The translations under genes and the position numbers were made by a program. 64,000 bases of DNA from Chara braunii (Eukaryota; Plantae; Charophyceae): positions 1,269,927 to 1,333,926 of the forward strand of contig BFEA01000034.1 of NCBI GenBank assembly GCA_003427395.1, written 5' to 3'. Positions 18,942 through 56,997 of this stretch are shown here, piece by piece. Position 1 is the stretch's first letter. The number at the start of each line of letters is the position of its first letter. The notes under the pieces are model-generated. The model made no database searches. It was given only the letters and a program-made list of their open reading frames with translations, and was not told the origin of the DNA.

Positions 18942-20352
18942 CCTTAAGAATGCCATGAAGCGTGTTCGCGCTTATAATCTCGCCCATCCTATATCCTAGC
19001 TACCCACTATGCCTAAACTTTGCCTAAACCTTGCCTAAACCCTGCCTCAAGCCTGCCTCCCTGCACGACACACATGCCCTGTACCCAACAAAACCCTTGC
19101 CCCTTGACCTCCCTCTGTCTGATCTGCTCTCGCCTCCGTCTCGCCCCGTTCGCCTATCTGTCCTCTGCCACGTCTCTGTCCCCCTTGTCGTCTCGCCCCG
19201 TTCGCCTATCTGTCCTCTGCCACGTCTCTGTCCCCCTTGTCCAAGTCCTACATGTGGCCTCTGCGCATCGTCGGCGATAACGGTGTCGAGCGCATCGGCT
19301 CCCGCCTTTTAGGCAAAGGCGAGAGACCTCCCTGCCATGTCACGCAGGAGTTGAACAAAACGACAAGAGACAACTTGGGAGCGACTCATAATAACTCCCG
19401 TGAACCGTCGAGACGAACGCGGTTCCACCTCTCCCTCGCCGCTCTAGTCGGGTGCGCCAGTTGTACATCCCGCGGTCCCCTACGACAGGATAGGTTTCCG
19501 TGGGGCATAAGTTTTCCTTCCCTAAGGGTCTGTCACCACCCTTAGGGGCGTATCCCTACCGAGTTATTGACCCACGTGCGAAAGTTTTAATATGCAGCCG
19601 CAGAGGTAGGTCAGCCGAGGGCGTTTGCTCATCTCGCTGCAGTATAGGAAACACTTGGTTAAACGTCGAGCGGACCCGAACGTTGTCCGTCCCTTAGGGC
19701 GCTGATCTCCTAAGTTCAGAGCGTACGTTGGTCGACTAGGACGGTCTGAACCAAGCGGTCTCAACCAAGCGTGAAACCCTTAGATACAATCCTAGTCCCT
19801 TGACAATCGTTCTGAAAACAACACAATTAAATTCATATGCCTTATATCGAAATTATCAGAGATCACGTCTTTGACTTGATGAGCCGGTTTGCCAAAGTTA
19901 TCCTTCTCAATCTATATGACTGAAGAAACTATTGCACCGCCGCTCCTGAGACGGAGGTTCAATATTGACGACCGATTAGGAAAGACAACCTAATCTTTAA
20001 CTTATTATCGGTCTATCGACACTTACTAATTCCTGCCAGGAGTATCTTCTGCAAATAAATTCCACTGCTATGATGCAAATCAACAAGTGATCTGGTTCCT
20101 GGTCGAAATTTGAACTCTCGATTTGACCACACTTCCGCTATCATATCCAATTTACTTCTAACATGCGTCTTTATGCATGTGATTACCCCTCAATGCATAA
20201 GCATGATAGTACAATCATCGGGGTAATCCAGATACTATCCATCTGGTGGGTCCTATTTAGGAAAGAATTTTTTTTTTTTTTTTTTTTTTTTACCCTTGTA
20301 GGATCACATAAATGTGACCCTACCATAAGGACAACTCACTGCGGTATCTAAC

Positions 20353-21197
20353 TCAAAATGACGGGCCTAGCCAAGATAGAGTTGTCGGCGAGGCCTCAAC
20401 CTTTATCCGGTCGAGTTGTAAGGGCTCCTCGTCGTCAAAAGTTAAGGTGGTAATGTGTCCACCCTGCTTGACCCGAACTGTTCGCGTACCATAGAGGGAA
20501 GCCATCCGTGAGGCCAATTTCCAAACTATGGCGCAAAACCGTTGTCGCATTCGAAAGAGGTGCCTAGTCGTGGTGTCCTTAATCCGGATAACGCCGTAGC
20601 GCTCTCCCGACACGGTAATTTTAACACTCACAATGACCCGAGAAAGGCATTGGAGGTTGCTCGCTCGATGAAAATACAAAGTATATCCATGAAATTCTTT
20701 CGAAATCCGAGCTACATTGGTACGAACATCCGTGCGCGAGTTAGGAAAAAATCCTAGCCCATCCCTGAGCAATCCAACAAAACCCATCCAACGCGTGGGC
20801 GCATCATCTCGAATAAGTAATAGCCGCTCCCCGCGCCGGATCAGCTCCTCGTCTATAGTGTCGCGAAGCAACAAATATCTTGACTGCTTGTCATGTGCAC
20901 ACCCGGAAGAGTTGCCTGTTAGAAAAGACGTTCCCAGATTTCACAAGCCTCGTTATCAAACGCGGTGACGTCAAAACGTTCAGAGCAAAAAATGTTAAAT
21001 TTATTCGCTCGCACTTCTTTCACATGATGAAGGAGACGGAATGGTCCTTGCTGGTCATTCAGCCAAATTTCAAGCGGATTATAGACTAAGCGTCCTTTTC
21101 GTATCTTGCCGAAACGTGATCGTGTCGGCACTGCTATCCATTCTATGGCCGCCTCTTGCTTACTGAATAATCGAAGGATCACTGCTCCTGTGGTCAT
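20353..21197 (-). pseudogene. Unknown ORF inside the LTR, in two frames and probably frameshifted
   Basis: ORFs 20919-21197 and 20353-20874. The ATG is directly preceded by a CTGAC...TTTTGTCATTCAG splice-acceptor-like sequence. I recognise no family. Confidence 0.4.
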
Positions 21198-21502
21198 CTG
21201 AATGACAAAATAATGACTTTGTCAGAATAAATCCATATGCTAAACTCTCTTTCCCTCCTTGGACCGTGATTCTTGTGTCACGGTCCTACCACGAAGGTAG
21301 TGCCTACTTGCACTCCGTTAACACTATTCGAACATGAATTGGGCTTCTTTTGACACCAGTTCCCCATACGATGGTGGCGCCTAAGACGGCCATCCAAAAG
21401 AAGATATTGAATTCAGCCGTCCACCACTCGGAAGTATGAGAAACGGCTATTCTTACGATAGGACATCCTACCCTCAAGAAAGTGGTTTGGAATACCCCTC
21501 CT

Positions 21503-21644
21503 CCTCGTCCGAACACATTGTTCAGATCTCAGATGTTGGGTTGGCTCCACCGCAATACAGCATGGTATTCCCCCTCGTCCGAACACATTGTTCAGATCTC
21601 AGATGTTGGGTTGGCTCCACCGCAATACAGCATGGTATTCCCCC
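21503..21644 (+). repeat. ~70-bp tandem duplication
   Basis: CCTCGTCCGAACACATTGTTCAGATCTCAGATG...GGTATTCCCC appears twice. Confidence 0.9.
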
Positions 21645-24600
21645 GTCAGACCGTCCACTTCGGGTCAATGACAGGGCCAGCTCCTAAAGCAACGAACCCC
21701 TGCCCCGGATGGCTCCTAGAGAGGAGCCCCAATTACTAGGAGTAGACATTTCCCTATACTCCGATTGGGTTTTGACTTAGACGGAAGAAGAATAAGATAG
21801 AGATAAGCACTGAGATCTCTTTGGACGAGTACAGAAAGAAAGTGTTGTTCGGGATAGAATGGGTTGTTCCTTGGAGATACTAAATCATTCTGACCCGCGC
21901 GCGTTATTTCTTATTTATAAGTTCACCGATAATGAGTTGAGTCAATTCTCATATATGAATCACCCTTCGGCTTTAAATGTCAAATAAGAGAGGCCTCTTA
22001 TCTTTATCTTCTTTTTCCACGAATTTCATTTTTTTGGGCACCCGTCGGTTCACCTTTCTCACTGTTTTCTTCTTTTGACACGCATATGGGTAAAGTGGAA
22101 GGAAAGTGAACATTCCCATCATTCCTTGAGCAAGCATAATACTGATCACTTCTCACATGCATCCATTTACCCACCTGCACAACCAAACGGAAGCAACAAC
22201 CCAAGATCATCCATACCTCAACCAAAGTCAGCCCCCCTTCACATGCATGACATCACACACTTTACTCTACCTTCTCCCTTAATCCAAGCAAGGTCATGCA
22301 AGGTGTGGGTTCACACAGGTGTGTAAGGGAAGGTGAGTCACAACTGACCTTGAGTGAAGTAGAAACAGCTCACTCAAGAAAGCCAAATACTCTTTCAAAA
22401 AAAATTGGCCGTACAACTCACGTTGTGACCGTTCACAAAAGATAATCTGCATTTTCCTTCAGGTGTCACCACTCACACAGGGCCACTCGCTAGGACTGGT
22501 GCGAGATAGCCCTCAAGGACGGTGCTCTCACTTTCAAGTCCCATGTGGTCCCACTACAGTCCCAGCGGCACCTCGACCCCCCAAGAAACCTCCACCAATT
22601 ATCAAGTCCGATCATCAAATGTCTGCTACGATACTTGTTTCAGTCTCAATCCCCACTCTCTTGGTCCCAATTTGGGTCCCAAGCGGCTCCACGCTGCTGC
22701 CGCACCACCAAATGATCATCCAAAATGTAAATCTGAATCGTGGCGCTCATCCAATCATTTACAGTGCCCCCGACGTCAATGCAGCAGTGCTACACCAAAA
22801 TTAGCCACACCGCCAAGTACCATGCCAAACAATCACCGCCGCAGATTCAGAACCCTTCGGTGAAAACCTCCACCAGCCGCGCCGCGCAATTTCGACAGCA
22901 ACACACCTCCCTTCAAAACGCTGTCAAATATAATGCCGCTAAAAAGAATCACTGCTGCGCCACACAATCCAGGCAGCACCTCCTTTCAAAAGTACAGCGG
23001 CGCAGCCTCCCTCTCAAAATCCCTTGCCACCACACAGGCTGTCGGGCAGCACCTCCCCGTCGTGGGCCCCTCGCCGCACGATCCAATCCTGCCTCAGCCT
23101 CACGGCTACAGCCTCCCCTCAGGCCTACAGCACAAGCACAAATGTGGGGCTAGAAGCTCCTAGTCTTCAGCTATGGCTGCCTCTCTCCTCCTCCTCCAAG
23201 TGCTTCTGCAGACCTCCAGCACTTTACCTCGCTACATCAGCAGCCAGCCAGCATCTACTTCAAGTAGAATGCCCCAACAGCATTGCCACAAGTGTGCGGC
23301 AGCTGGGTGGCAAGTTGGCTTTTATAGCTGGCTGAAGGCATGTGGGCAGCTGCCTTGCCCACAGCCAGACAAAATTTCGTCAGGGCTCCTGGCCCTTGAT
23401 CTAAATCAATGGCCAGGAGCTCTGTGCCTTGGTTTCCCTAGGGAACCAGGGTCATCAGTTCCCTGGAGCACCTGGCCATTTTCCCAGGCCAGGTGCTTCT
23501 AGAAATGGCTGTACTCAACCATTTCAGGACTGCTGTTCAACTGAACAGATGCAGTCCCATCAGCCCTTAAAAGCTTCTGGGGCGGCCACATTTGTGGCCG
23601 TTACCTTTCTTTACCTCCTCTTTTTCTCTCATGTATATATCCTGAACCCGCGGCCACATACGTGGTTGTTGCTTACTTTTTCCTTCCCTACCTCTTTTTC
23701 TTTCTTTCTTTTTCTTTTTTCTCCCCCTAACCCCTCGTTTCCTTGTGCAGGGGCAGCCCAGCTCGTTTTCCAAAACGGGCTGCCTTCCTAGTCATTTCGC
23801 AGAGCCTAACTACAGTGAGGCTCAAAGGGGTTGTCTCCCCCTGCCCGCGCCTGTATCTGGGCCAAATAAGTGCCAAAGACAGGCGTGTGGCTTATGAGCT
23901 CCCTCCCTCTCTCTCTCCCTCTAGGTCCCGACAGCCACGGTCGTTGCCAGCGTCGAGCGAGCTGCTGTGAAAGCCTTCAGAAAGAGCCCAATTGATGCCA
24001 CAAAAATGTTCGTTCGACCACTAAGGAATGCCCCGTCGTTCCTCACAAACAGGAACCCCCCCAGGGCGTGTGCAGAGAGTCCCTGGTAACTTCGAGTGCA
24101 AGGCTCAACCCCCAGGCTCGGAATGTAGCCGCATCCTGCGGCAAATTCATTCCAACCAAAATTATAGTCCGTTCGTTGAAAATGAACGGACACTTATTTA
24201 TTTATTTATTTATTTCTTTTTCCCGAAAAAATCTAAAACAGATCTAAGAGAAAAAAAATCTAAAAAATAAAAAACAAAAACAAAAAAAATAAAAACAAAT
24301 CTTACCTTTCTCACAAACGGCTGCCCGTTGTTTCGGGCGCCTGCAGTGATTCTGGGGACTGTAAGTCCACCTTACTTCTGATAGCGCCATATGGCGCTTC
24401 ACTTTTAGTTTTAGTTCAATTTATTTTTTTTCCTTTTTGTAGCGGAAAATTCATTCCAACCGAACGGGCACTACACCGGTTTAAAAAACAAAATCTAGAA
24501 ATACAAAAAAGAAAACGGTTGCCCGTTCAAATGATTTTTATATGTTTTTAGGTGTATGCGTGTCACTCTCGTGCATGGCCATGCAGATCAGCGCGGCCCG

Positions 24601-25751
24601 ATCTCGGCCACGCGATCTTCGAAATTGCGCTGTCGAGATCGACCACGACACCTCAAAAAACTGGGCCGCTCCTAACAAAAGGAGCTAGCCCAGCCGCATG
24701 TCGTTGGGCTCGATCCTTGAATCAGCAGGGTGACAATCAGATGGCGGTACCTACTGGGCCAGCTCCTTATTACGGGAGCTAAGCCCACAGCTCTTCTATA
24801 AGAAGAGCTGCCTCCCTGTAGGCCCGTCTGCTACAGCTAGGCAGGTATGGCCTGCCGCACCTGTAGCCGCGTCGCCTGTTAATTCACAGGCGCCCCACCC
24901 TAGCGGCTTGACTTGGTGGCCCGCGGCCAGCAGCGAAACAGTATCAGGTCCTCCGTACGGAGTAGACCTCTTGGCCCAACATCAAGCGCGAACACTCTTT
25001 TTCTACGTATCTAGGCTCTAAACCGCACGACTGCTATTGGGTTTAACTTCAGCGTCCCATCTCCGCACGTTCCAGCGGCTTCGACAACAGCAAAACATTG
25101 CCATTAACATTCATTACTCCTGGACGCTACACGCGTCCGGACTGGAATTCAAAAACTTTTAGTCTCTCAGTCATAGGTCAGGTCTGAATAAACATTGGCA
25201 ACGTCAGTCTCATGAAGTCCTTCAATTCAACAAGAAAAAGTCGGACATCGTTCGACGTTCAAAAACCCCGGCAAATACCCTTGTCAGGGTTTTTGCCCCG
25301 ACAACGGATCTAATGGCAAGCGCACAAGGACGATGGCATGCTGCAGCTCAGTACGAGGAGATAAGACAGCTGGTCGGCCACCATGGGGTTCCCTTTGGCC
25401 GGCACCTTGGACTCGCAGACTTCTGGAGCAGCACCTCTGACATGGACATCAAGATCAGTCTGCGACCTGCTGTCCGGATCTGACCTCATCATCAGATCAT
25501 GTACCGGACGCAACCTGCTACTGCGACAATCAAGTTGAAGTCCTTGCCGTCTTTATCATAGAACTGCTGAAGACTGCTTCCTCACCGCCACTTCTGCGAC
25601 ACCCTCCAAGACCTTCCTCGAGACATTTTTTCTCTTTTGACATTTTGTTACAGACCTGAGACGTTGTTTTCCCAGACCCCTGAAACACCCCAGCACTTGG
25701 CATTGAACAAGCAATTTTTTTTTTTTTTTTTCTCAAACCTGACAACCTATA

Positions 25752-38332: not shown

Positions 38333-41300
38333 ATAGGAAAGGGGGTCATAAAGGGGTAAAAGAATTGAGAGATTAACGAACTACTTGGATCAAACTGATG
38401 TGGGATTCAGAGGGATGTTTGTTTACGCATGTTTGCGGGTTCTTGTTTGGGGCATCTCTTGGTAGCTTTAGTTGTTTAGATGCTCGCCGAGTGTTGGAGT
38501 CATAGACTAGAATGGATGATGGGAAGGGAAAATTGGGATACGATTGGACTGACCTTACTAGAAGTTAGGACTAGTGGTAGCTCATGATGCCATCTTCAAA
38601 AGAGGATTGTGTGGACTATCACCTGCTCTAACGATCAAGTGAGGGTCACAAGTTAGTCCCAAGTATAGTTGTACTTTGTTTCTGCATTTTCAACTTTGTA
38701 TAAATCTTGGCAGTCTCCTGTTCCTACGGGAAGCACTGCCGAAATTTTTACAAATCTGAAAGAGTTAGTCATTTTTGGACATTTGAAAATTCTGAAAAGA
38801 CACTTTTCCTGAGGGTAGAGATGCCGAAATTTTGTGAAATTTAGCGAGTTAGATTATTTTCTGCTAAGGAAAACTTTGGCAAGGAGATGTCAGTGCTCTC
38901 AATAACTTCTACGGAAAGTAAGGTAAACGTTAGTAAGGAAGATAGGCTATGGAGTGGTGTTGATCCTCCATCTGTCTTGAACGAAGTACTTGGTCCGCTT
39001 TGGCTTGAACTGTGGTGCANNNNNNNNNNNNNNNNNNNNNNNNNNNNNNNNNNNNNNNNNNNNNNNNNNNNNNNNNNNNNNNNNNNNNNNNNNNNNNNNN
39101 NNNNNNNNNNNNNNNNNNNNNNNNNNNNNNNNNNNNNNNNNNNNNNNNNNNNNNNNNNNNNNNNNNNNNNNNNNNNNNNNNNNNNNNNNNNNNNNNNNNN
39201 NNNNNNNNNNNNNNNNNNNNNNNNNNNNNNNNNNNNNNNNNNNNNNNNNNNNNNNNNNNNNNNNNNNNNNNNNNNNNNNNNNNNNNNNNNNNNNNNNNNG
39301 GTGTTGATCCTCCATCTGTCTTGAACGAAGTACTTGGTCCGCTTTGGCTTGAACTGTGGTGCAGGTCAACGAATTCGATTGAAGGCTTGATTCGTTCGAC
39401 TTGATCCTACGAAGGATCATTCTTCTGTTATCCCTTGATAACAGGTCGGTTTACGACACTTCCCTGCTTCTACATCTCAACTGAAAGCCTTGGCTCTTGG
39501 GGGTTTCCATCTTTCTTGTGATTTTCACCCAGATTTCTAAGTGGCCATTTTTAAAGACTGAGTACCTTTGTTGCGGGTTGGTGGAAATTGGTTGGGGCTT
39601 GTATGCATAAGGCAGGGTGTGAGTCGCAAAAACGCAGTAAAGTTGACTCCCTTACTGTGTGTGATGTTGTTGTTTGAACTTTGTGTGATCGCAGGTATGC
39701 GTATAAGATCTTTGGATTGAGTTTGATGATAGTTTGAGTATTGTTCAAATGTTGATGGACAAGCCACACTACTATTGTGAGAGTGATCGTCTGAAACCAC
39801 ACAAACTTCTGCTTGAACTACCTCTGCTGAGCATAATTATAATGAGAACCCTATAGTGGTCGTGAAAAGTGATAGCCTCAAATTTCATAACCCCTCGTAT
39901 ACATATGTGTATACATTCCCATTTACATGTACATATACATCAGTATTCGTGCGGTCTGCTGTGACCGCGTGCGGGAGTTAAACAAACTATGTCTGAGAGA
40001 AAAGAAAGATCCACTTTTACCTTTTGCTTTTCAAGGTTATCATGGTTGGACGTTGTTGTTTGTGGCAACCGTCAAAGTCAAACCCCTTGATTTCACTCCA
40101 GGCCTTGGATGATGGAGCTTGCCTCCTAGGCGACGAGAGTTGATTGCCACCACAGGCTGGAACCTGTGTACCACCCACTCTCCGTAGAGTGCAGAAGAGT
40201 GTGTGGTGATCAACCACCTTGGCGGTTATCTATCGTTGGGAGATTAACCCCTCAAGGCACGTGTCAGCCGATACTTGAGTATGGAAACGTGACCCTCGAG
40301 ACTATCGAGGGTCGCGTGATTATGGGTATTACATAGTATTCCATCGATGCGATTGCGTTCGTATACTTGCATTGCTAGTCGATATGAGAAAGCCCTAGCG
40401 TCCGCGCGGTTTTATCTTGAGTCTCGCGCACGACGCCTAACCGATTTTCGTGGTAAAAGGTTATGGTTTGGATACTGAAGGGACTATCAAAGTTTTGTTT
40501 TTGTGTGTATTTTATTTTTTGTGTGGTGTAACGCGTGGTGAGTGGAATGTGTCCTAGTCGACCGACGGCGAGTCGTGCTTGGGACCTCAGCCCCCCAATG
40601 CATTGATTCACGTGCGGGTCCGATTGAGGGGCGTTAACCGCACGTACCCCCAGTGCCACAGAACGAGAAAATGCCCTCGGTCGGGCGACCTCTGCGATTG
40701 CATACGAAAAGCTATCGCATGTGATTCGATAGCTCGGCGGGGATACACCCACCCAAGGGATGGTGACAACTCCCGGAGGTGGAGGTAAGTTGTGCCTCGC
40801 GTGACCCTATCCTGTCGTAGGGGTTCACGAGAGGTATGGCTGGCGCACTCGGCCGGAGCGGCAAAAGGCTCTGCGACGAAGTCCTACAAAATCCTGCGTG
40901 ACACGGTCAAGAGGGTCTCCCTACGGGACCGATGCGCTCGATACCGCACGTCCCAAAAAACAAAACAAGCTTTGGCCGCGATTGTAGTTGGATACACTTT
41001 TTGGAGTACTCCGTGTGAGTCTGCCCTCAGTGAGGGCACTTCGGTAGAACGAAGAACACGGGGAGCACTGTCAGACTCACGAAAAAAGAACAAAAGAAAA
41101 AAAACAACAAAGCTTTGGTCGTGAAAGTGGTTGGATGCATTTCAACGACGCTAGTGTGAGTATGCCCCCAGACAGGGCGTTTTGAGAAAGAGGCGCTGCC
41201 TTGCTGGCAGGGAAAGGCAGGAAAAAAAAAAAGGAGAAAAAATAAACCAGCAACGTTCCCTCTCCTCGTAATAGTGGTCAGATGCATTTTGGAAAGTGAT

Positions 41301-42149
41301 CATTTGAGTATGGCCTCCGTGACGTCCTTCCACGACATCATTGATCTCTGGCATGTTTGTTCTTTTTTTTTTTTTTTTTTTTTTCCCTTCAGGTAGACCG
41401 TCAGCACCGGTGCCACTTTCGAAATTCCCACTGCAGGTACCCTCATGCCGAAGGCTCGGGAAATAGCGGCGTGCAGTGGGCAGGTAGCTTCGGGATTTTA
41501 TGTGCGGGTGTACTGGTGGTTTTAAGTTCTTGCTGCGCTACAGAGGGAACGTGGACTGACCAATCCTATGCAAGACGTCTACCAGACCGTCTATAAATTA
41601 TTTCTGGACGGATCTGATCTGAACACTGGCTGTGATCGTTGTCCTGTCTGCGACGTTAAATACTTCCCGAGGACCTTGGGGGTTGTCTTTAAACTGCCTC
41701 TTGATTAGCCGGATGTAAGGCTCATTGCACGCAGGGATAAATAACGGGCAGTACTGGTCATAAGCGGGTTCCTGGGCACAGGAAGGGAAGGTTCCAATTG
41801 GTGCTCGAGCATGAACACATTTATTTCCATTACCGGGTACATCTGTGCACGTGATCTATTTTTATTTTGATTAGTTGAGGTGTGACAGACTGCTAACACC
41901 TGACAAACAACAGTAGTTCAGAACTGTTGTAGTCTACCATTGCCAGCTCTATGTGATGGTGATGTAGGAGAAGTAATCGGAGTAGCAATTGATCAATTGC
42001 TCAGTCTGTGTATAAACTGTTGGCACCACTTGATCGGTCGCCCGAGTGACATGCTAAATAGTAAATATTTATATATTTATTTTTAATTATTTTTCAACTC
42101 GGTTAGACACATGTTGCGGTAGGCTCAAGTGAGGGCATAATGCAGATAG

Positions 42150-45100: not shown

Positions 45101-45635
45101 GTCCTGAAGAAGGGGGGGACAATGAGGATGTGCATTGACCATCACCGTTAAAAACGTAGAGCCTATACCACACACCCTCTTGGATAGGGTGCAGGGATGT
45201 AAATGCTTCACAAAGATAGATCTAAAGTTCGGTTACCATCCAATTGTGAGTAGACCAGAGGACCAATACAAAACTGCACTTTGGACCAGGTTCCGTTTGT
45301 ACGAGTTTGTGGTGATGCCCTTTGAACTTCGCAATGCGCTGGGCACATCCCAGCACACCATGAATAGGATAGTTCATGACTACTTGGATAAGTTCATCGT
45401 CGTCTACCTCGACGACATTCTTATCTTCAGTAGAACAGTCTAGGAACATCCCCAACATTTAGAAAAAGTACTTTCACTCCTGCGAAAACATGAGTATAAG
45501 ATCAATTTAGAGAAATGCGAGTTCGGTCGCACTAAAATCTTGTACTTGGGTCATGAGATATCCTTGGAAGGGATAAGGGCGGAACATGCCAAGGTGGCTA
45601 GCATTCGTGACTGGCCATGACCCCATTCTGTGACA
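42150..45635 (+). mobile_element. Decayed Ty3/Gypsy internal region (Gypsy-3): gag, PR and RT, truncated after RT
   Basis: LKPPPSFSGDKKDEALDTWLR, zinc knuckle CINCGEYGH, AFVDIGS, KIDLKFGY and VVYLDDIL. It ends at IRDWP*PHSVT. Confidence 0.9.
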
Positions 45636-45657
45636 TTGGATACAGTTGCAAAAACGT

Positions 45658-48223
45658 TGTCGAGCGCATCGGCCCCCGCGCGAGCACGAGGGCCCTCCCG
45701 ACCATGTCACGCAGGAGATAATCAAAACAAAACCTGGAGACAACTCGAGAACGACGCCTAACTAATCCCGCGAGCCGCCGAGACGGTCGTGGCCGCGTCG
45801 TCTCGTCCCCGCTCTAGCTTGGTGCGCCAGCTATACATCCCTCGCTCTAGCTTGGTGCCTCCCCAACGACCATCGTTATGATTGTGGCTATAGCCAGCAG
45901 CACCTCCACCCTTGTTGAGATGGTGGCTATGAGAGCCTCCTCTCTCTGCCTCTATTGCAAACCTCCACTCTCCTCCTCGAGGCAGCACTTACTCTAGCAG
46001 CAACAACTCCCACCGGCAGCTCCTCCACGCCCCTCCTAGCAATGCTTAGCTGCTCCCGGACCTCAGTCCACTCCTAAGTTTTTGAGTGTCACGTATCAAG
46101 CTATAGGTCTCACTACGCGCCCATGGCCTCATTTGCTATGTCAAGCTGCTGCTCCGCTGTGCCTTTGCTTGGGTCCACCCCTTCCTAATATAGTCGTGGA
46201 GGTGGGGCACTCACATCACTTCAGTTATGGGTCCATATGTGCCTCTATCTGCCTTCACTCGAGCTGCTGAATCCCGAAATCACTCTGTGACTGCCACTTG
46301 TCACTTCTCCTTGCTTCCTCTACCGTCACCGTGGAATTAGAGTTGTTGTGACCCATAACTTTCATTGTCCAGCTTGCTTCGCCTTGTGTATATATATACA
46401 TGTCCCTCTAATGGCTTCAGGTTGTCTCATCGGGCTCTGGACCGAAGTTCCGGAGCAGCCTCTCATTGAAAATGGGGGCAAGCTCAGTCCGCATGGGTTT
46501 GAGCCCAAGCAGCCCTCATAGGGCTGCAATACAAGGCGGATAACTCAAGCCCTTTGCTATATGGAGGGCTGCCAATTCGGAGGCTTCAAAGCCTTGAAGC
46601 CTCAGTCTGCTGCTGGAGGCAAGAGTCACAGCCAGACCTTAAAAAGGCCTGAGCTACACTCTCTTGCTGTGGTTATGGGTTGAAGAATTCCCAGCCATGG
46701 TCACTATGTTTTGTTTTCTCCACCGTGGTCTCCCACATTAAAAATAGGCAGCCAAATGGCTACAGCTAACTCCTGGACAGCCATTGGCTGCCTTTTTTCT
46801 GTCTGGCACGAGTTCTGAGGGGTGCCAGCTCAGTGCTAAAGAACAACTCGTTATAATCGCGAGCTAAAATCTCGACAGGCTTAGAGCGGGATGCAAAAAG
46901 TACCCTGATTTTGGCGATTTTTAATTAAAATTTCGTCAAATAAAAGAATCTGAAAAAATTCATGCGCGTGGCATAGGTGCCCACCTACTCAGAGAAAATT
47001 TTTCAGAGCGAACAAAAATCATTTACGCCACCAAAAAATATAGGCGCAAACTGCGTTATACACATTTTCTAAAAATCTTGATCCACTTTTTTATTTATTT
47101 TTATTTTTTTTCTTTTTTCTTTTCCCTTTTTGCCCATTGGCCTAACAGCGCCCTTGGGAAGGCTGTGGCTCCAAGGCCCAGCCATGAACTATTGAAATGC
47201 AGACCAGAGTCCAAATCCAAATGGATTCAGGGCATGGTGGGGTTGTGCAACCTCATGAAAAATGACCCTCACCACCCTACTCACCAGATGTGAAAAATGG
47301 AAACGAGTTTCCCCTTTTCCCACGGGAAGAAGCAGTGCCTTGTTAAGCCGTGAGGCTGCTGCTATTTCAAATTTCATAAGAAAAAAAAATCATGTCATCC
47401 CTGCGTAGGTCATGCTACTCTCTACGCGGCTGGTTTTCAGCCGTGCGATTTTATCTATCGCACGACCGAAAATGGCCGCGTCATAAAGTTGGGCTGCTCC
47501 AAAAGGAAGGAGCTAGCTCAGTGGGCCTATTGGCTTCGATCCCCACATCTGCGGTGTATCAAGCTGGTACTTTACCTACTGGGCTAGCTCCTATTTCACA
47601 TCAGGATAGGAGCAGGCCTCATATATGAAAGGCTATAATGGCCAATAGGCAATCTATCTACGGCCTTGCAGGCCTCGCCTACATGAGGCCTTGAGAACTT
47701 GCCTACTTGTAGCCTAGCAGGCCTATCTTGCCTGTGGCCTTGCAGGCCTCACCGGCTGGTGGCCTAGCAGGTTCTACCTACTGCCACTTCCTCATGGATG
47801 GCAACCTATCCATGGCTCCGGGGCCACCCATCGGGTAGGCCTCGGCATAGGCCTGTTGGCCCTCCCCTTGGCTCGAGGTCAACTCGGTGGCCCTTCCTAT
47901 TCCTCTCGCGCCCCTCCTTTCTAGCCTACTTAGGCCTTGAATCGTGCGGCTTAGTAGCCACGCGACATTATTTTAGATAGAATAGGTTTAACTTTAGCGT
48001 TCCCATGTCCGCGAAACATTGTCATTCACATCTGTTATTCTCGGACGCTACATGCGTGCGGACAAAAGCTCGAAAACTTTTAGTTCCTCAGTCATGGGTC
48101 AGGTCTGAATAAACTTTTGGCAAACGTCGGTCTTATCAAGTCTTTTAACCGAACGAAAAGTCGGACTGCGTCCGAGGTTTAAAATCCCCGGCGAATACCC
48201 TTGTTAGGGTATTTGCCCCGACA
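45658..48223 (-). repeat. 3' LTR (2566 bp, internally deleted)
   Basis: Collinear with 52122-52305 and 54596-56997. Confidence 0.9.
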
Positions 48224-48734
48224 GCATTCTGAGACCCCATTGAATGACTTCCACGTCATTCATCCTATATTAACAAATAATATAGGTTTGTCTGGATTCT
48301 TATGGAACTCCTTTGTAAAAATACTAACAAAATTATCCCATATATAATTAGCCCGAAGCTTATACCAGAATCCGTGTCGTTCCCCCGGTAGTCTAAAATT
48401 CACGATCTATGAATGATCTTACTGAGCGATGTTCCCGCCGCTCTTCATCAAGATAATAATAGAAACTGCATAAGATTTTAATAGATACCTTTAATCAATC
48501 AAGCAACCATCCGGGACGAAGTCGGGGAGTTTTTACCAATATTCAAGGAATGTCACTCTCTGTCGTTCACTATCCAAATAGAAATTAGGATTCTTACGAA
48601 ATTACCACGTGAAAGCAACACTTAAGAAACTCAACAATTCAACAAACATTCGGAACACAACTGAAATTCTCACATCAACATTCAACAATAAAATTGAATT
48701 TTAATCTTTAGAAGTCTTACAATTCACTCACTCG

Positions 48735-49710
48735 ACAGGATCATTCCCCTGTAGGTCTTTTGACAGGATTATTCCCCTGCAGGTCCTTTCACAGGATCAT
48801 CCCCCTGCAGGTCTTTCAAAAGGAAACAGTCACATCATAACTGAACCAATTTTTCAATTCAACAAACATGCTGATTAAGACAAGTTCCTTGTCACAGAAC
48901 TATTCCCCAGTTTACTGATAGGAATGATTCCCCGGTTGCTGATGGATTAACCTCCCAATCCACTGATGGGAACGAGTCCCCAGTTGCTGATGGAAGTCAC
49001 TCCCTAGTCTGTTGATGGGAACCAATCCACATTGTACTGATTTGAATTACTTTCTAGCTTTCTGATGGGAATGACTCCCCAGTTGCTGATGGGAATGACC
49101 TCCCAGTCTACCGATGGGAACAAGTCCCCAGTTGCTGATGGAAGTCACTCCCCAGTCTGCTGATGGGAACCACTCCCTAGTCCACTGATAAAATCGAGTT
49201 GTGAGATCATCCTGTTATAGGTCTTTCACAGGCTTAACCCCCTGCGGGTCTTTTTCATTCCATCGAATATGGAAATGACTCCCCAGTGGCTGATAGGAAT
49301 GACCTCCGAGTCCATTGATCGGAACAAGTCTCAAGTTGCTGATGGAAGCCACTCCCGAGTTTGCTGATGGGAGCTAATCCATGGTCTTTCACAGGCTTAA
49401 CCCCCTGTGGGTCTCTCATTCCATCAATATGGAAACGACTCCCCAGTTGCTGATGGGAATGACCTCCCAGNNNNNNNNNNNNNNNNNNNNGGGAACAAGT
49501 CCCCAGTTGCTGATGGAAGTGAGTCCCCAGTCTGCTGATGGGAGTCAATCCATGGTCTTTCACAGGCTTAACCCCCTGTGGGTCTTTCATTCCATCAATA
49601 TGGAAATGACTCCCCAGTTGCTGATGGGAATGACCTCCCAGTTTATTGATGGGAACAAGTCCCCAGTTGCTGATGGAAGCCACTCCCCAGTCTGCTGATG
49701 GGAGTCAATC
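48735..49710 (-). repeat. 3' UTR arrays: ~28-bp CAGGATCATTCCCCTG units and a ~23-bp TCCCCAGTTGCTGATGGGA array with higher-order duplication
   Basis: Directly visible. Confidence 0.9.
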
Positions 49711-50664
49711 CTCTTTTTGATAATCATTCCTCAGTAGTCGCCATAACATTCCATAATATTCATCCTAAAATAAATGAGATCCATTCAGGACCAAGTCTTG
49801 ATTGCGATTCAAACTTCTTCACATTCCATCCTAATTTCAGTGTCTCCATTCATCAATCTGTCACATGTAGAGTAGAACAACCTTACCTTTTACAACCAAG
49901 GTTGGCTAGACCCTGGTTACAAGGGTACAATGCCTGACACAAGGAGAGGTAGCCACTTCTCCCCTCGCAACAACCATAGTCGTCTACCTACAAATTCACA
50001 ATTTCTCAACAACTTACATTCAACCAAATACTCACAACAACAAAACAAATGCTTTCAAATGGAATTTCATAGTGATCCTTATCGTATATTCTTCAATAAT
50101 AAACTGATCAGACAATTTTTCAATAGATAATAGAATGAACATATCAAATGAGACAGAATTCTCGTGTCATAAAAATGATATCAAACGAAACATCAACCTT
50201 GAGTTGATTTTATTAATCTCACAAAAAATTGTTTTGAGTTCATTAACTCAGGAATTGAAATCAGAATCTCGACAATCTATTTTTTCTGTAACCGTCAATC
50301 CCTTGCATCTACTCGGAGTGTGTCCGGTACTACCATATCTCTTACATGTAATATTCTCCCAATAGGATCTCCCTTTCTTTACTCGTTGGTCTAGTTGATT
50401 TCAAGACGCTGACTCGCAATCTTGAGTAGTTGACATTGAAGAATTATCCAACTGATCTCCCTCATTGTCCCTATCTCGCTCACATTGGTCCTCCAAAGGA
50501 CGTTCTATCCTTGTCTTCTAATACTCATGACAACAATCGTCCTTTTCTTTTTTCAGTATTCCTCTGATTTTTGAGAGATTCGTCACGGGATCTGAATCTC
50601 TCTTTCGCTTGTCAACTCGACACTCTCTCTCAATTTTTTGTAAGCAAAGATGTAATCGAAGAGT

Positions 50665-51480
50665 CTAGTTAAATATTCGACTAAATTCTCGGTCAATAAA
50701 ATTTGACCGAATTTTTTTCCAATTGAATTTACTACTTTCTCCTCGGGTAAGCAAACACAGCTCCCCTTCAGAAAAATTTTCAAGAAAAGCAAAGCACTTC
50801 CGTCTATCTGTCAACCCTTGAATTCGACGAGCCACCCGTTCAAATTCACCCATAAACTTTTTCTTTACTCCATATGGATCTCGCTCAACATTCCTCAAAT
50901 CCTCAATTGTTGTTACTGTATCGCCTAACCAGAATTCGTCTAACACGGCATCGGGAAAATGAGGCCACACTAATGAAGTCTCAATTATTTGTTGGACTAT
51001 ACTCGCGAGATCTTTGTCAATATATTTAAGAACTCGCCTCAACATTTGAGGCTTATCCCAATCGTTAACGGATGCCAACTGTTCAAATTTTTCAAGGAAA
51101 GTAGAAACAAAATTACCGTCGAAGAGAGGGACGTCTACTCTTGGCAGACTTTCCCTTTCCACGTCTCTCTGTTTTACAAGTCGAGTTATTCCCGTCATAT
51201 CTTCGTGATGATGACCTTTGCTTTCTTCCTTTTTCTCTCCTGCGAGCGGTTTCGAGAATTTGACAATCATCAACTTCTCGAACTCATTCCAGGTTTCAGA
51301 AGCACGTAGAAGATGTCCAATCTTAACTTTCAATTCTTCAATCACAAACCCCAAAGTAAAAAGGAACTTGTGATTTTCTCCCCAAAGCATTAGTGTTGCC
51401 AAAGCCTGAAAGGCCTTTAAGAATTCAACAACCCCGCTACCTCTGAAGAGAGGCACGTCGGTAAAAGTTCCTCCCGTCAT
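50665..51480 (-). CDS. Retrotransposon Gag capsid-like protein, C-terminus disrupted
   Basis: VPLFDGNFVSTFLEKFEQLA...W...W..F capsid N-terminal pattern, present twice. It lies downstream of the PBS, and the acceptor-like TTTTGCAG ends 9 nt before the ATG. Confidence 0.75.
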   Translation of the reverse strand: MTGGTFTDVPLFRGSGVVEFLKAFQALATLMLWGENHKFLFTLGFVIEELKVKIGHLLRASETWNEFEKLMIVKFSKPLAGEKKEESKGHHHEDMTGITRLVKQRDVERESLPRVDVPLFDGNFVSTFLEKFEQLASVNDWDKPQMLRRVLKYIDKDLASIVQQIIETSLVWPHFPDAVLDEFWLGDTVTTIEDLRNVERDPYGVKKKFMGEFERVARRIQGLTDRRKCFAFLENFSEGELCLLTRGESSKFNWKKIRSNFIDREFSRIFN

Positions 51481-52100
51481 TTTATCGCCCTGCAAAAGGC
51501 ATAAAGTATATTAATAATCAAATTATCTTATTGATAATTTAACAATCACTGAAACAATTTCAGGTCTGACTTGCAAGAATAATGCTTAACCATCAAATTA
51601 ACTTATTCGGATACCGTTTCATNNNNNNNNNNNNNNNNNNNNNNNNNNNNNNNNNNNNNNNNNNNNNNNNNNNNNNNNNNNNNNNNNNNNNNNNNNNNNN
51701 NNNNNNNATCACTGAAACAATTTCAGGTCTGACTTGTAAGAATAATGCTTAACCATCAAATTAACTTATTCGGATACCGTTTCATCAATGAAAATATGCC
51801 ATAGATGTTCAATTATCTATCAATGAGATTTACAAATTACTGTGAACGAGAGTTACAATAATAGTTCTTAGAACTAAAAGTTATTATTAAAATGACTTTG
51901 AAGTTACACTTTCTTTGCGAGTTTGAGATAAAAGTTAGTACCAGATGCACCACAATAAAGAGTACAAGAAAGAATTACCCTTCTTTTCCTTATAGAGGTC
52001 AGAGTTACTAACCTTTCTCTTAGCCAAGTAAAGAAAGTATAATTTTTACATCATCCAATCCCGAGTATCGTTCCACCAGGGACAACGGTAGTTTGTCGTT

Positions 52101-52119
52101 ATCCCCGGCAACGGCGCCA
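52101..52119 (-). promoter_or_regulatory. Primer-binding site complementary to the 3' end of plant tRNA-Asp
   Basis: The minus strand reads TGGCGCCGTTGCCGGGGAT, 2 nt after the LTR CA. This is the PBS type known from Athila-like elements. Confidence 0.92.
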
Positions 52120-52121
52120 CC

Positions 52122-55100
52122 TGTGAAGCGCATCGGTCCCCGCGCGAGCACGAGGGCCCTCCGGGCCATTTCACGCAGGAGATAAACAAAATAAAACCTA
52201 GAGACAAATCAGGAAGGACGCCTAACTAATCCCGCAAGCCGCCGAGACGGTCGTGGCCGCGTCGTCCCGTCGCCGCTGTGGCCGGGTGTGCCAGCTATAC
52301 ATCCCGCAATCCCCTACGACAGGAAAGGTTTTCGCGGGGCATAAGCTTGCATCCCTAAGGGGCTGTCACCACCCTTTGAGGCGTATCCCTACTGAGCTAC
52401 TGACCCACGTGCGAAAGCTTTCATATGCAATTGCAGAGGTAGGTCAGCCGAGGGCGTTTGCTCGATTGATAAATACGTTTGGTTGGCGCCAAGTGGACCC
52501 GATCGCCGTCCGTTCCTAGGGCGCTGATCTCATAGGTACGAAGCGGGACGTTGGTCGACTATGACGGTCTCAACCAAGCGTGAAACCCAAATTAATCCTA
52601 GTCCCTTTAGACATATAGCCAAATGAAATTATAACATTCACAGTCAATTACATCAAAAGAAAATCGAACGTCGTCGACAGAAATATCCAATATGATATGA
52701 TAACTAAAGTATTCGAATCACCACACAATACATCCAATAACACAAGATCGAAATAAAATCCGACCATCTCAGGTCGAAGACCACAAAGCAATCATACAAC
52801 CGCCAACAAGGAGTTGGTCACCGACAATAACATAGATTCAGCCGACAAGGTAGTCGGCTGCCTTAGTCTTGACTTGACGAGACGCGTTGTCAAAGTCTTT
52901 CATTCCAACCTACTTGCGACCGGAACCTCGACGCACATACATGCCTTCGTCCGTTTTCAATCTTTTCGGATGACAAGCTACTTTGCGATTGATTCTTGAT
53001 CAGGGGCATTGCTTGACGTGTTGCATGCCTCTTCCTCTAGGAAGTGGTTTGGGTTACTCCTCCTCCTCGTCGAAACACAAGACTCGGATCTCAAAAGTCG
53101 GGCCGTCTCCACCGAATCGACAAGTACCCCCCCCGTAGAACGGTCCACTCTGGGTCGATAACAGGGTTGGCTCCTGAAGCAACGAACCCCCGCCCCAGAT
53201 GCTTCCTAGAGATAGTGGATGTGTCCACCGCAAGTAGTTTTCATATATTTTTTTATTTCTCCTAAGTCGCGGGGGTAACTTAGACGAAAAAAAATTAGAA
53301 GAGATAAAGAAAATGAGAATCATTTAGACAGGTACAGGTAGATAAGGTCGTTCGGGATAGAATGGGTCAATCCTTGGGAAAAGTTAAATCCGTTTGACCT
53401 TATCTGCTTTATTGCAATAGAATCCATTCTTCGACACACGTTGAATAACATTTTTCCAAAACAACAAGCTTTTCTTGACAAGCATGCAGGTGAAAGGTAG
53501 AAAAAAAACAATCCATTCCGTCATCTCAAAGAGGCATAATCAATCTCCTTTGTAAGCATCCCTCTACCTACCTGCACAAACGGCAAAGGAAACACGTTCG
53601 AAAGAAAACAGTACAATCCCATACTCGAGTTAGTCTTTTCCATTCACATGCATGACTTGCACAACTTTCCTCTACCTTTTCTTTTGAATATTCAAAACGA
53701 ACAGGGGCAAGCAAAGTGCAGGTCGACACAGGCATGAAAGGAAGTCAGAGTCATTCAACTGACCTTGAGTGAAGTTGAATGGTACACTCAAGAAGACCGT
53801 ATAAAATCACTCCCTTTGACTCGCCGGTAGTCCTCCCCAGTCGTCAACAAAGTGATCCAAACCACTCTCTTGCTGCGATCACCTGCCACAACACCCCCTT
53901 ACTTATTTTTCAGTAAGTATCGTCGCCACTAGCTTCCACTGTGACAGCGTCACCGCGCCGTCAAGTCCACACTGCCTCAAGATACCCCACTCTAGTGGCA
54001 CCTTCCCTGCACAAAGGCCCAACTGCCGCTCAATGTAAAATTATTGTCGTCACCGCCATAAACCCTGTGCCGACATTGCGAAATTTTTCAACAACGCTTC
54101 CGCACTGCCGCTGTAAAGCCTGGTGCCGTCGCCGTAAAATTTTTGCAGTGCTTCCACACCACCTGGGTTAAGCTTGTGTCGCCGCCGCAAAAGTTTGGCA
54201 GCACCACCGTATCATCGCCGTAAAAGCATGCGTCTCCGCTGCAAAAGTTCGGCAGCACTTCCGTACCACCGCCGTAAAAGCCTGCGTCGCCGCCGCAAAA
54301 GTTCGGCAGCATTTTCGTACCACCGCCGTAAAAGCCTGCGTCGCTGTTGCGAAAGTTCGGCACCACTTCCGTACCACCGCCNACCACCGCCGTAAAAGCC
54401 TGCGTCGCCGCCGCAAAAGTTCGGCAGCACTTCCGTACCACCGCCGTAAAAGCCTGCGTCGTAGCCGCAAAAGTTTGGCAGCACTTCCATACCACCACCG
54501 TAAAAGCTTGCGTCGCCGCCGCAAAAGTTCGACAACACTTCCGTACCACCGTAAAAGCCTGCATCGCTGCCGCAGTTGCCGCATAAAGTAGCAATGCCTC
54601 CCCCACGACCGTCGTTATGACTGTGGCTATAGCCAGCAGCACCTCCACCCTTGCTGAGATGGTGGCTATGGGAGCCTCCTATCTGAGCCTCTGTTGCAGA
54701 CCTCCACTTTCCTCCTCCAGGCAGCACTTCCTCTAGCAGCAACAGCTCCCACCGACAACTCCTCCACGCCCCTCCTAGTTGTGCTTAGCTGCTCCTGGAT
54801 CTCAGTCCACTCCTAATCTCCTGAGTGTCATGTATCAAGCCTTAGGTCTCACTACGCGCCCATAGCCTCATATGCTATGTCAAGCTGCTGCTCCGCTGTG
54901 CCTTTGCTTGGGTCCACGCCTTCCTAATATAGTCGTGGAGGTGGGGCACTCACATCACTTTAGTTATGGGTCCATATGTGCCTGTATCTGCCTTCACTCG
55001 AGCTGCTGAATCCCGAAATTACTCTGTGACTGCCACTTGTCACTTCTCCTTGCTTCCTCTGCTGTCACTGTGGAATTAGAGTTGTTGTGACCCATAACTT

Positions 55101-56997
55101 TCATTGTCCAGCTTGCTTCGCCTTGTGTATATGTATACATGTCCCTCTGCAGGCTTTTACATCCTGTGATGATGGCTTCAAGCTGTCTCATCGGGCTCTG
55201 GACCAAAGTTCCGGAGCAATTTCTCATTAAAAATGGGGGCAAGCTCAGTCCGCATGGGTTTGAGCCCAAACAATTGTCATAGGGCTTCAATACAAGGCAG
55301 ATAAGTCAAGCCCTTTGCTATCTGGAGGGCTGCCAATTCGAAGGCTTCAAAGCCTTGAAGCCTCAGTCTTCTGCTGAAGGCAAGAGTCACAGCCAGACCT
55401 TAAAAAGGCTTGAGCTGCACTCTCTTGCTGTGATTATGGGTTGATGATTTCCCAGCCATGGTCTTTCTCTACGTTTGTTTTTTCCACCGTGGTCTCCCAC
55501 ATTAAAAATAGGCAGCCAAATGGCTTCCCTAACTCCTGGACAGCCATTGGCTGCCTTTTTTCTGTCTGGCACCCGTTCTGAGGGGTGCCAGCTCAGTGCT
55601 AAGATTGGGGGGGTAAGAACAACTCGTGATAATCACGAGCTAAAATCTCGATAGGCTCAGAGCGGGATGCAAAAATTACCAAGACTCTGGCGATTTTTAA
55701 TTAAAATTTCGTCAAATAAAAAAATCTAAAAAATTTCACGCGCGTTGTATAGGTGCCCACCTACTCAGAGAATTTTTTTCAGAGCCAACAAAAATCATTT
55801 ACGTCACCAAAAAAATATAGGCGCAAACTGCAAAATACAGATTTTCTCAAAATTTTGATCCACTTTTTCATTTTCTTCTTTTTTTTCTTTTTCTTTTTTT
55901 TTTCCCTTTTTATCCATTGGCCTAACAACGCCCTTTCGAAGGTTGTGGCTCCAAGCCAAGCCATGAACTGTTGAAATGTAGACCAGAGTCCAAATCCAAA
56001 TGGATTCAGGGCATAGTGGGGCTGTGCAACCTCACGAAAAATGGCCCTCACCACCCTACTCACCAGATGTGCAACATGAAAACGAGTATCCCTCTTTCCC
56101 ACGGGAAGAAGCAGTGCCTCGTTAAGCCGAGAGGCTGTTGCTATTTCACATTTCAAGAAACAAAAAAATCATGTCATCCTTGCGTAGGTCATGCTACTCT
56201 TTGCGCGGCTATTTTTCAGCTGTGCGATTTTATCGATCGCACGACCGAAAATGATCGCGCCATAAAGTTGGGCTGCTCCAAAAGGAAGGAGCTAGCCCAG
56301 TGGGCCTATTGGCTTCGATCCCCACATCTGCGGTGTATCAAGCTGGTACTTTACCTACTGGGCTAGCTCCTATTTCACATCAGGATAGGAGCAGGCCTCA
56401 TATATGAAAGGCTATAATGCCCAGTAGGCAATCTATCTACGGCCTTGCAGGCCTTGCCTGCATGAGGCCTGCAAAACCTGCCTACCTGTAGCCTAGCAGG
56501 CCTATCTTGCTTGTGGCCTTGCAGGCTTCACCGGCTGGTGGCCTAGCAGGTTCTGCCTATTGCCGCTTCCTCGTGGATGGCAACCCATCCATGGCTCCGG
56601 GGCCACCCATCGGGTAGGCCTCGGCATAGGCCTGTTGGCCCTCCCCTTGGCTCGAGGTCAACTCGGCGGCCCTTCCTATTCCTCTCGCGCCGCGATCCTA
56701 TACCCGGCGCATCCTTCTTTCTAGCCTACTTAGGCCCTGAATCGCGCGGCTGCCAATAGGTCTAACTTTAGCGTTCCCATGTCCGCGAAACATTGGCATT
56801 CACATCCGTTATTCTCGGACGCTACATGCGTCCGGACTAAAGCTCGAAAACTTTTAGTTCCTTAGTCATGGGTCAGGTCTGAATAAACTTTTGGCAAACG
56901 TCGGTCTCATCAAGTCTTTTAACCGAACGAAAAGTCGGACAACATTCGACGTTTAAAATCCCCGGCAAATACCCTTGTCAGGGTATTTGCCCCGACA
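52122..56997 (-). repeat. 5' LTR (4876 bp)
   Basis: TG...CA termini, adjacent to the PBS. Confidence 0.9.
54050..54585 (+). repeat. 54-bp minisatellite within the LTR, about 9 copies
   Basis: Unit CCGCCGTAAAAGCCTGCGTCGCCGCCGCAAAAGTTCGGCAGCACTTCCGTACCA. Confidence 0.92.

What the first reader, a model, noticed from the sequence alone, without database searches (positions are those of the whole stretch)
19284..56997. Modular giant-LTR family: conserved ends, swapped cargo
Four LTRs of 2.6, 4.9, 6.0 and ~10.5 kb share roughly 300 bp at U3 and up to ~500 bp at U5. Their middles differ: an unknown ORF, a 54-bp array, or an rRNA mosaic plus hairpin array. The 2.6-kb copy is simply deleted. Inference: the LTR itself acts as a cargo compartment that persists as solo LTRs. 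This is a candidate undescribed system.
Basis: partly seen in the sequence, partly recalled or inferred. Interest (0 to 1): 0.85.

Follow-up and report, generated by a model that had tools for sequence, protein, structure and literature searches.

The report
Giant algal LTRs carrying rRNA fragments
In what is likely a stonewort alga (Chara), the end repeats of one jumping-gene lineage run 5 to 10 kb with similar ends but different middles, one holding three ribosomal RNA pieces where a relative holds a U6 RNA copy, likely because the element's copying enzyme picked up abundant cell RNAs, which would make these oversized passive carriers rather than a new system.

Summary
The four units exist at the stated sizes, but they are three insertions. 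A (6.0 kb) is a solo LTR. C (about 10.2 kb once an assembly gap is closed) is probably one. B (2.6 kb) and D (4.9 kb) are the paired LTRs of one gag-only element with a tRNA-Asp primer site. The lineage is Ty3/gypsy with Chara braunii relatives, 4-bp CG-centred target duplications and no polypurine tract. A and D also share middle blocks (44% of D), so 'only the ends are conserved' is overstated; C is far more distant. The cargo idea gained support. C holds three sense rRNA pieces. A sister element (L011) shares C's first ~0.8 kb and its 3' end, then carries a full U6 copy instead. D's 54-bp array and A's insert recur beside gag at other loci, and no cargo has its own duplication. Best reading: a hypervariable LTR slot, likely filled by template switching onto co-packaged RNA and carried passively. 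Not shown: a paired 10-kb LTR, or any function. The scan's earlier Chara notes concern accessory ORFs, not this. New variant of a known kind.

The parts
19284..25303 (-). Unit A: solo LTR, 6,020 bp, TG...CA, flanked by the 4-bp duplication ACGG
19885..21470 (-). A-specific 1.6-kb segment in the 3' part of the LTR (D has 345 bp here)
   Evidence: block map
20356..20940 (-). 195-codon stop-to-stop frame; length not beyond chance; 21 residues match the first exon of one Chara gag gene model (P0007)
22391..24558 (-). A variable slot (2.2 kb), not alignable to D's slot of similar length
29500..29766 (+). Empty-site paralog of the repeat into which element B-D inserted
30450..40943 (+). Unit C: probable solo LTR, 10,494 bp as assembled (10,150 if the gap closes by overlap); TG...TA; flanks CCAT/CCGC (2 of 4 match)
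30450..31233 (+). U3 start shared with the 3' LTR of sister element L011; homology ends at a T-rich tract
   Evidence: (E 1e-52)
31457..31986 (+). 28S rRNA piece (model 675-954) with a 279-nt insert, sense to the element
   Evidence: E 6.7e-8
34491..34999 (+). 253-bp tandem duplication with microsatellite heads
35211..35300 (+). 18S rRNA piece (well-aligned core from model 1213), sense
   Evidence: E 1.1e-6; rRNA-like read ends
35637..35819 (+). 28S rRNA piece (model 2621-2802), sense, above Rfam gathering score; its junction to downstream DNA recurs in one other contig
   Evidence: 52.2 bits; record 10
37275..38340 (+). Degenerate ~63-bp array; copy number varies among other contigs
   Evidence: (joints)
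39020..39299 (.). Assembly gap flanked by an identical 64-bp overlap
40146..40943 (+). Conserved, very high-depth 3' end of C, shared with A, D and the 5' LTR of L011
45658..56997 (-). Gag-only LTR element (B + internal + D), 11,340 bp, duplication ACGT
45658..48223 (-). Unit B: 3' LTR with a 2,289-bp deletion (filler at about 45842-45855); no polypurine tract in front of it
48904..49711 (.). 25/49/148-bp tandem array in the 3' untranslated internal region
50314..51480 (-). gag (open frame 51480-50668, zinc-knuckle remnant 50388-50314); no pol
52102..52119 (-). Primer binding site, Athila-type tRNA-Asp; the only one in the window within 4 mismatches
52122..56997 (-). Unit D: 5' LTR, 4,876 bp
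54043..54594 (.). 54-bp array at the end of D's variable slot; related sequence lies before gag in 2 of 120 gag relatives
55959..56002 (+). tRNA/SINE-like fragment, antisense to the element, also in B (47177-47223) and sense in L011
   Evidence: E 0.002-0.004; loose end
56155..56240 (-). Weak U6-like core, sense, also in B (47398-47417); suggestive only
   Evidence: 17 bits, E 2.7; 1 and 5 of 100 shuffles reach it
56964..56991 (-). Hairpin at LTR nucleotides 7-34; equivalent in A, B, C and L011

Best explanation
These are long terminal repeats of a Ty3/gypsy lineage, likely from Chara, in which a conserved tip and a conserved 3' part bracket a variable slot that differs between subfamilies and holds rRNA, U6, SINE-like and minisatellite pieces, likely patched in by reverse-transcriptase template switching onto co-packaged cell RNAs and then likely carried along passively. 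Shown: the ends, target duplications, primer site, gag, the B/D pairing, the RNA-derived pieces and their orientation, and the C/L011 exchange after about 0.8 shared kb. Inferred: the slot is U3 (no start site was mapped); capture happened during minus-strand synthesis; each later round copies the slot into both LTRs; LTR-LTR recombination leaves solo copies such as A and probably C; the gag-only elements borrow pol from autonomous relatives; the cargo has no selected function.
For: L011 has C's LTR start (813 bp, E 1e-52) at its 3' LTR and C's LTR end (E 2e-31) at its 5' LTR, with the same primer site and a related gag, which ties C's two ends to one LTR type. About 1.1 kb into that LTR L011 has a full U6 copy (57 bits, E 9e-13) where C has 28S rRNA at about 1.0 kb. 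The 4 firm Rfam hits (28S twice, 18S, U6) are all sense to the element. The SINE-like fragment and weak U6-like core sit in both B and D, so that slot content predates insertion. D-array-like sequence precedes gag in 2 of 120 relatives, once with the same flank (P0099, E 6e-7; P0005, E 3e-9); A-insert-like sequence starts 1 of 120 (P0007, 10.1 bits versus at most 5.3 in 30 shuffles). One other contig spans the 28S-piece/downstream junction with 88 other letters and 22 gaps over about 560 bases (record 10). Summed contig depth (a rank, not a copy number; own-locus contigs 6-15): B slot 302/541, gag 205-231/552-669, conserved 3' ends 40,000-75,000. Cargo edges share only 5-7-letter words, as random pairs do. 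Retroviral particles package U6 and RT recombines with host RNA (PMC4997597, passages).
Against: No paired C-type LTR was seen, so replication of a 10-kb LTR is not shown. C's target duplication matches 2 of 4 letters. Few other contigs cover C's rRNA zone (3 at 35288, 6 at 35775), and the 5' third of C has no read data. Sense bias rests on 4 of 4 firm pieces (1 in 16 by chance) and the SINE-like piece is antisense in B/D. LINE-made U6 and 28S retrocopies are also mostly sense and could have landed in an LTR (PMC13174262, passages). A's and D's main slots have similar length (2.2 and 2.4 kb) and may simply have diverged. The U6-like core in A is not significant (37 of 100 shuffles). The swap rests on one sister contig (1 of 14 pattern hits).
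Confidence: 0.6

Rival explanations
1. C is an old, shorter LTR (about 5-6 kb) inflated after insertion by nested retrocopies and repeats; the 10-kb form never replicated.
For: C is old (mutated terminal CA, imperfect duplication). Own-locus contigs over 34839-36542 have single-copy depth, and only 3-6 contigs cover points in the rRNA zone, whereas depth jumps from 36144 onward. The rRNA pieces are not in precursor order.
Against: No duplications at cargo edges beyond chance; one other contig carries the 28S/downstream junction; three rRNA pieces in one 4.4-kb stretch, all sense; the sister LTR carries U6 at the matching place.
Confidence: 0.2
2. Ordinary LTR subfamily divergence: the middles descend from one sequence and drifted apart through substitutions, indels and tandem amplification, with RNA pieces as rare accidents.
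For: A and D are colinear over 44% of D, with slots of similar length; U3-centred divergence with conserved R/U5 is described for crapaud (PMC10787394, abstract and section 8).
Against: 28S, 18S and U6 pieces cannot arise by drift; C and L011 stay alignable for 0.8 kb and then hold different RNA genes.
Confidence: 0.12
3. The RNA-gene pieces are selected cargo: Pol III promoters as in Cassandra/Helenus, or rRNA-like shields that would blunt silencing or aid packaging.
For: L011 has a tRNA-like unit just upstream of its U6 copy (seen, homology); a U6-like core may persist at a matching place in B and D.
Against: The pieces break many model base pairs; ARAGORN finds no tRNA in L011; 18S/28S carry no internal Pol III promoter (general knowledge); known Pol III-type elements are under 1.3 kb (PMC10886601, passages).
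Confidence: 0.08

Closest known systems
Ogre (Tat clade, Ty3/gypsy)
   Same: Very long LTRs (1.9-6.5 kb per PMC6431247, passages), tandem arrays in non-coding parts, extra 5' ORF in some (L011 has a 246-aa one).
   Different: C is about 10 kb; primer is tRNA-Asp not Arg; 4-bp not 5-bp duplication; no extra RNase H seen in 44 of 120 relatives scanned.
Athila (Ty3/gypsy, OTA)
   Same: Identical tRNA-Asp primer sequence; no extra RNase H or chromodomain seen; non-autonomous derivatives.
   Different: 4-bp CG-centred duplication rather than 5 bp; no polypurine tract; LTRs of 5-10 kb against a 1-2 kb default in ATHILAfinder.
Phygy (moss non-chromovirus)
   Same: 4-bp NCGN target duplication (PMC6317226, passages and supplementary file 3).
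   Different: Phygy uses tRNA-Trp (81%) and is short with coding sequence filling the interior.
Cassandra, Helenus, Ajax (TRIMp3)
   Same: Non-autonomous LTR elements with RNA-gene sequence inside the LTR (PMC10886601, passages).
   Different: Those are 0.3-1.3 kb with one conserved 5S or tRNA promoter piece; here LTRs are 5-10 kb and hold decayed 18S, 28S and U6 pieces that differ between subfamilies.
crapaud of Podospora
   Same: One family, many LTR subfamilies differing in U3 with conserved R/U5, template switching proposed.
   Different: In the abstract and section read, no captured structural RNAs and no giant LTRs are mentioned.
U6/LINE-1 and 28S/LINE-1 chimeras; host RNA patches in retroviruses
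   Same: Same RNA species, sense orientation, template-switch model.
   Different: Those are single insertion events; here the pieces sit inside an LTR and at least some slot content is copied to both LTRs.

Membership tests
Ty3/gypsy LTR retrotransposon | TG...CA direct terminal repeats with target duplication | tested here: met
   A and B-D: TG...CA with perfect 4-bp duplications; C: TG...TA with 2 of 4 matching
Ty3/gypsy LTR retrotransposon | tRNA primer site after the 5' LTR | tested here: met
   2 nt after D and after L011's 5' LTR
Ty3/gypsy LTR retrotransposon | Polypurine tract before the 3' LTR | tested here: not met
   B and L011: no purine run next to the LTR; best 11 and 12 purines in 15 nt within 40 nt
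Ty3/gypsy LTR retrotransposon | gag-protease-RT-RNase H-integrase order | tested here: met
   In gag relatives such as P0068, not in the window's element, which lacks pol
Athila | tRNA-Asp/Asn primer site | tested here: met
Athila | 5-bp target duplication | tested here: not met
   4 bp in A and B-D; Athila 5 bp in 95%
Athila / Tat / Phygy | Placement in the RT-RH-INT tree | not tested
   No lineage-labelled reference set was on hand
Tat/Ogre | Additional archaeal-type RNase H | tested here: inconclusive
   No such Pfam hit in 44 of 120 relatives scanned, but these are partial gene models
Phygy | 4-bp NCGN duplication | tested here: met
   ACGG, ACGT, and CCGC on one side of C; NCGN is 4.4% of window 4-mers
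Phygy | tRNA-Trp primer, compact element | tested here: not met
   tRNA-Asp primer, LTRs 5-10 kb
TRIMp3 (Cassandra/Helenus/Ajax) | RNA-gene-derived sequence inside the LTR | tested here: met
TRIMp3 (Cassandra/Helenus/Ajax) | Miniature non-coding element under about 1.3 kb | tested here: not met
   11.3-kb element with gag
TRIMp3 (Cassandra/Helenus/Ajax) | Working Pol III promoter in the LTR | not testable with these tools
   Only a tRNA-like unit by eye in L011; ARAGORN negative

The most novel reading that the evidence does not exclude
Chara hosts a large Ty3/gypsy lineage with Athila's primer, Phygy's CG-centred targeting and no polypurine tract, whose LTR replicates at up to about 10 kb, beyond the 6.5 kb quoted for Ogre, and works as an RNA trap: each subfamily fixes a different sense-strand collection of 18S, 28S, U6 and SINE pieces in one slot and spreads it, giving a genomic fossil record of the host RNAs packaged in retrotransposon particles.
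Probability: 0.4. Interest if true: 0.78.

Novelty: new variant of a known kind. Interest (0 to 1): 0.58.

Why it matters
If confirmed, it raises the size an LTR can reach, in a range that standard finders exclude (the plant reference set capped LTRs at 6 kb; PMC6317226). It would show capture of rRNA and U6 into an LTR that then spreads, which makes the question of which host RNAs ride in retrotransposon particles testable from genome sequence. The missing polypurine tract with a conserved terminal hairpin points to an unusual way of starting plus-strand DNA. Practically, such LTRs scatter rRNA-like sequence and feed false exons into gene models.

Tried and rejected
No whole genome is held, so no genome-wide census was possible. 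Metagenome pattern scan: 1 of 14 loci was related (L011); the other 13 showed no similarity to the window. Viral collection: 0 hits for the LTR-primer junction. Word-index protein searches found nothing for D's gag or for A's frame, near or longer; A's frame does not match L011's 5' ORF. Rfam on A and on B-D gave only chance-level hits apart from the weak U6; Rfam on 31990-34440 gave one chance-level hit, so a second 28S-like stretch near 32100-32200 is by eye only. A single-sequence U6 search did not find the B/D core, and the pattern was shaped on the hits, so its chance figure is not valid. A D/C motif near 36400 was not significant (7 of 200 shuffles). 'Hairpin array' as a folded RNA: not supported for the one unit folded. 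RNA: no RNA holder was listed as on record; two raw RNA runs gave low, two-strand, mostly under-90% reads on the LTRs and no start or end site, which says nothing on expression. Rejected: C as two truncated LTRs around an interior (no internal primer site or duplicated ends). The Chara genome paper is not held, so I could not see whether it or its supplements describe these repeats.
Full report
Observation. A self-comparison of the window and direct inspection place four units: A 19284-25303, C 30450-40943, B 45658-48223 and D 52122-56997. A, B and D lie on the minus strand, C on the plus strand. A ends TG...CA between ACGG and ACGG and is a solo LTR. B and D are not separate: ACGT flanks the outer side of each, a paralog of the joined flanks lies at about 29500-29766, a primer site follows D after 2 nt, and the two align at K2P 0.078 over 2,339 columns. 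They are the 3' and 5' LTR of an 11.3-kb element whose interior holds a gag frame (Pfam Retrotrans_gag, E 6e-4, below the curated cut-off) and a tandem array but no pol. B lost 2,289 bp; since D keeps them, the loss is inferred to follow insertion. C ends TG...TA between CCAT and CCGC and spans a 280-N gap with an identical 64-bp overlap, so its length is 10,150 bp if the gap closes that way.

What is shared. A and D align in colinear blocks over 2,165 of D's 4,876 bp: the first 0.8 kb, a 0.8-kb middle block and the last 0.6 kb. Two slots differ: 2.4 versus 2.2 kb after the first block, and 0.35 versus 1.6 kb before the last. C shares with them only 43-49 bp at the tip and 315-590 bp near the 3' end.

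Lineage. No genome is held. A scan of metagenome contigs with an 18-letter motif common to A, C and D (3 window matches, 0.02 expected) gave 14 loci, of which 1, L011, is related. L011 is a second gag-only element with the same primer site; its gag is 29% identical to D's. Its gag found 120 relatives; of 11 looked up, 10 are named Chara braunii and 1 is L011's own unnamed protein, so the window is likely Chara. Of 44 relatives scanned, many carry protease, RT, RNase H and integrase in Ty3/gypsy order, and none showed an extra RNase H or chromodomain (partial gene models). The primer sequence is that printed for Athila tRNA-Asp (PMC2844528 and the ATHILAfinder preprint, passages). The duplications are 4 bp and CG-centred, a trait given only for moss Phygy (PMC6317226, passages and supplementary file 3); such 4-mers are 4.4% of the window. 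Neither B nor L011 has a polypurine tract before the 3' LTR, while all five LTR starts fold into a hairpin (z -1.8 to -3.7).

Is C one LTR? L011's 3' LTR begins like C for 813 bp (E 1e-52) and its 5' LTR ends like C (E 2e-31). C has no inner primer site and no duplicated ends. That supports one LTR. Against certainty: the duplication matches 2 of 4 letters, and no paired copy was seen.

Cargo. C holds three rRNA pieces, all sense: 28S model 675-954 (E 7e-8), 18S from model 1213 (E 1e-6) and 28S 2621-2802 (52 bits). They are not in precursor order, so several captures are inferred. After the shared 0.8 kb, which ends at a T-rich tract, L011 instead carries a tRNA-like unit (by eye) and a full U6 copy (57 bits, E 9e-13), also sense. 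This is the clearest swap, from one comparison. B and D both hold an antisense fragment of the same tRNA-like unit (E 0.002-0.004) and a weak U6-like core (17 bits; 1 and 5 of 100 shuffles reach the score, A 37 of 100). D's 54-bp array is matched by sequence lying before gag in 2 of 120 relatives, once with the adjoining flank. A's 195-codon frame is not longer than chance (21 of 200 shuffles) and has no database homolog, but 21 of its residues match the start of 1 of 120 gag models, so the DNA recurs beside a gag elsewhere; that it is a gene is not shown. No cargo edge has a duplication beyond the random level (edges approximate).

Read data. Two DNA contig sets and two RNA runs were laid on 34810-54800 at 80% likeness. 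Summed depth is not a copy number and is used as a rank only; contigs from this very locus have depth 6-15. The conserved 3' ends reach 40,000-75,000. B's slot has 302/541 and gag 205-231/552-669, so that slot is about as common as its own interior; the array bin has 956/1,741. In C, all bins from 36144 on are at least 466/1,793, and joints show length variants of the 63-bp array. The rRNA zone is thinner: 3 contigs at 35288 and 6 at 35775. One 1,492-base contig lays from inside the 3' 28S piece to 36244 with 88 other letters and 22 gaps, while its first 956 bases do not lay. The 5' third of C and all of A have no read data. RNA reads gave no start site.

Mechanism. Established: U3 is copied into both LTRs in each round; retroviral particles package U6 and other host RNAs and RT patches them in by template switching (PMC4997597, passages); U3-centred LTR subfamilies are known (PMC10787394, abstract and section 8). 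Inferred here: rare switches onto co-packaged rRNA, U6 or SINE RNA, plus minisatellite growth, lengthen a tolerant slot between the ends needed for integration and the 3' part needed for expression and priming; subfamilies fix different fills; recombination leaves solo LTRs. I put this at 0.6, post-insertion inflation of C at 0.2 (LINE-made U6 and 28S copies are also mostly sense; PMC13174262, passages), plain divergence at 0.12 and selected function at 0.08.

Novelty. Each ingredient has a precedent: Ogre LTRs of 1.9-6.5 kb (PMC6431247, passages), 5S or tRNA in miniature LTRs (PMC10886601, passages), U3 subfamilies. Six searches (listings and abstract starts) listed no title or abstract describing Chara LTRs, LTRs near 10 kb, or 18S/28S/U6 pieces inside an LTR; the Chara genome paper and its supplements could not be read, and PMC6894440 (passages) added nothing specific. 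The scan's two earlier notes on this genome concern accessory ORF arrays. Verdict: a real feature, a new variant of a known kind, interest 0.58; 0.78 if paired 10-kb LTRs with shared rRNA junctions are found.

Noticed in passing
window 48224-48263; L011 1477-1516: No polypurine tract before either 3' LTR; the two share a short non-purine motif there, and a hairpin starts 6 nt into every LTR. Plus-strand priming is unexplained.
   Followed up: partly
window 19280-19283, 45654-45657, 40944-40947: All target sites are CG-centred 4-mers, as reported only for moss Phygy elements.
   Followed up: partly
L011 4577-5317 (minus): 246-aa open frame between primer site and gag, no Pfam hit; part of it recurs at the start of protein P0102.
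   Followed up: partly
proteins P0004, P0118, P0005, P0099, P0007: Public Chara gene models join this gag to kinase or WD40 domains, or to LTR-derived exons; annotation artefacts or domestication.
   Followed up: no
window 6800-8700: AT-rich organelle-like insertion with tRNA-His (7333-7406) and a bacterial-type LSU rRNA piece (7993-8307).
   Followed up: no
window 2200-6800, 14400-19250, 42500-45650: Three decayed Ty3/gypsy coding regions of another lineage (RT, RNase H, integrase remnants); A and B-D sit at their edges.
   Followed up: no
window 33570, 34153, 35033 and 24138, 24442: A 14-letter motif recurs three times in C and twice in A, in opposite orientation relative to the elements; at 35045 contig depth is very high, suggesting a piece of a dispersed repeat.
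   Followed up: no
window 61500-63800 (minus): DUF659-bearing, hAT-like transposase remnant.
   Followed up: no
window 251-811: Endonuclease-like frame typical of a LINE.
   Followed up: no
window 47177-47223, 55959-56002; L011 400-500: A tRNA-derived SINE-like unit; RNA reads in one run extend the B copy with a tRNA-like head, suggesting an expressed SINE family.
   Followed up: partly
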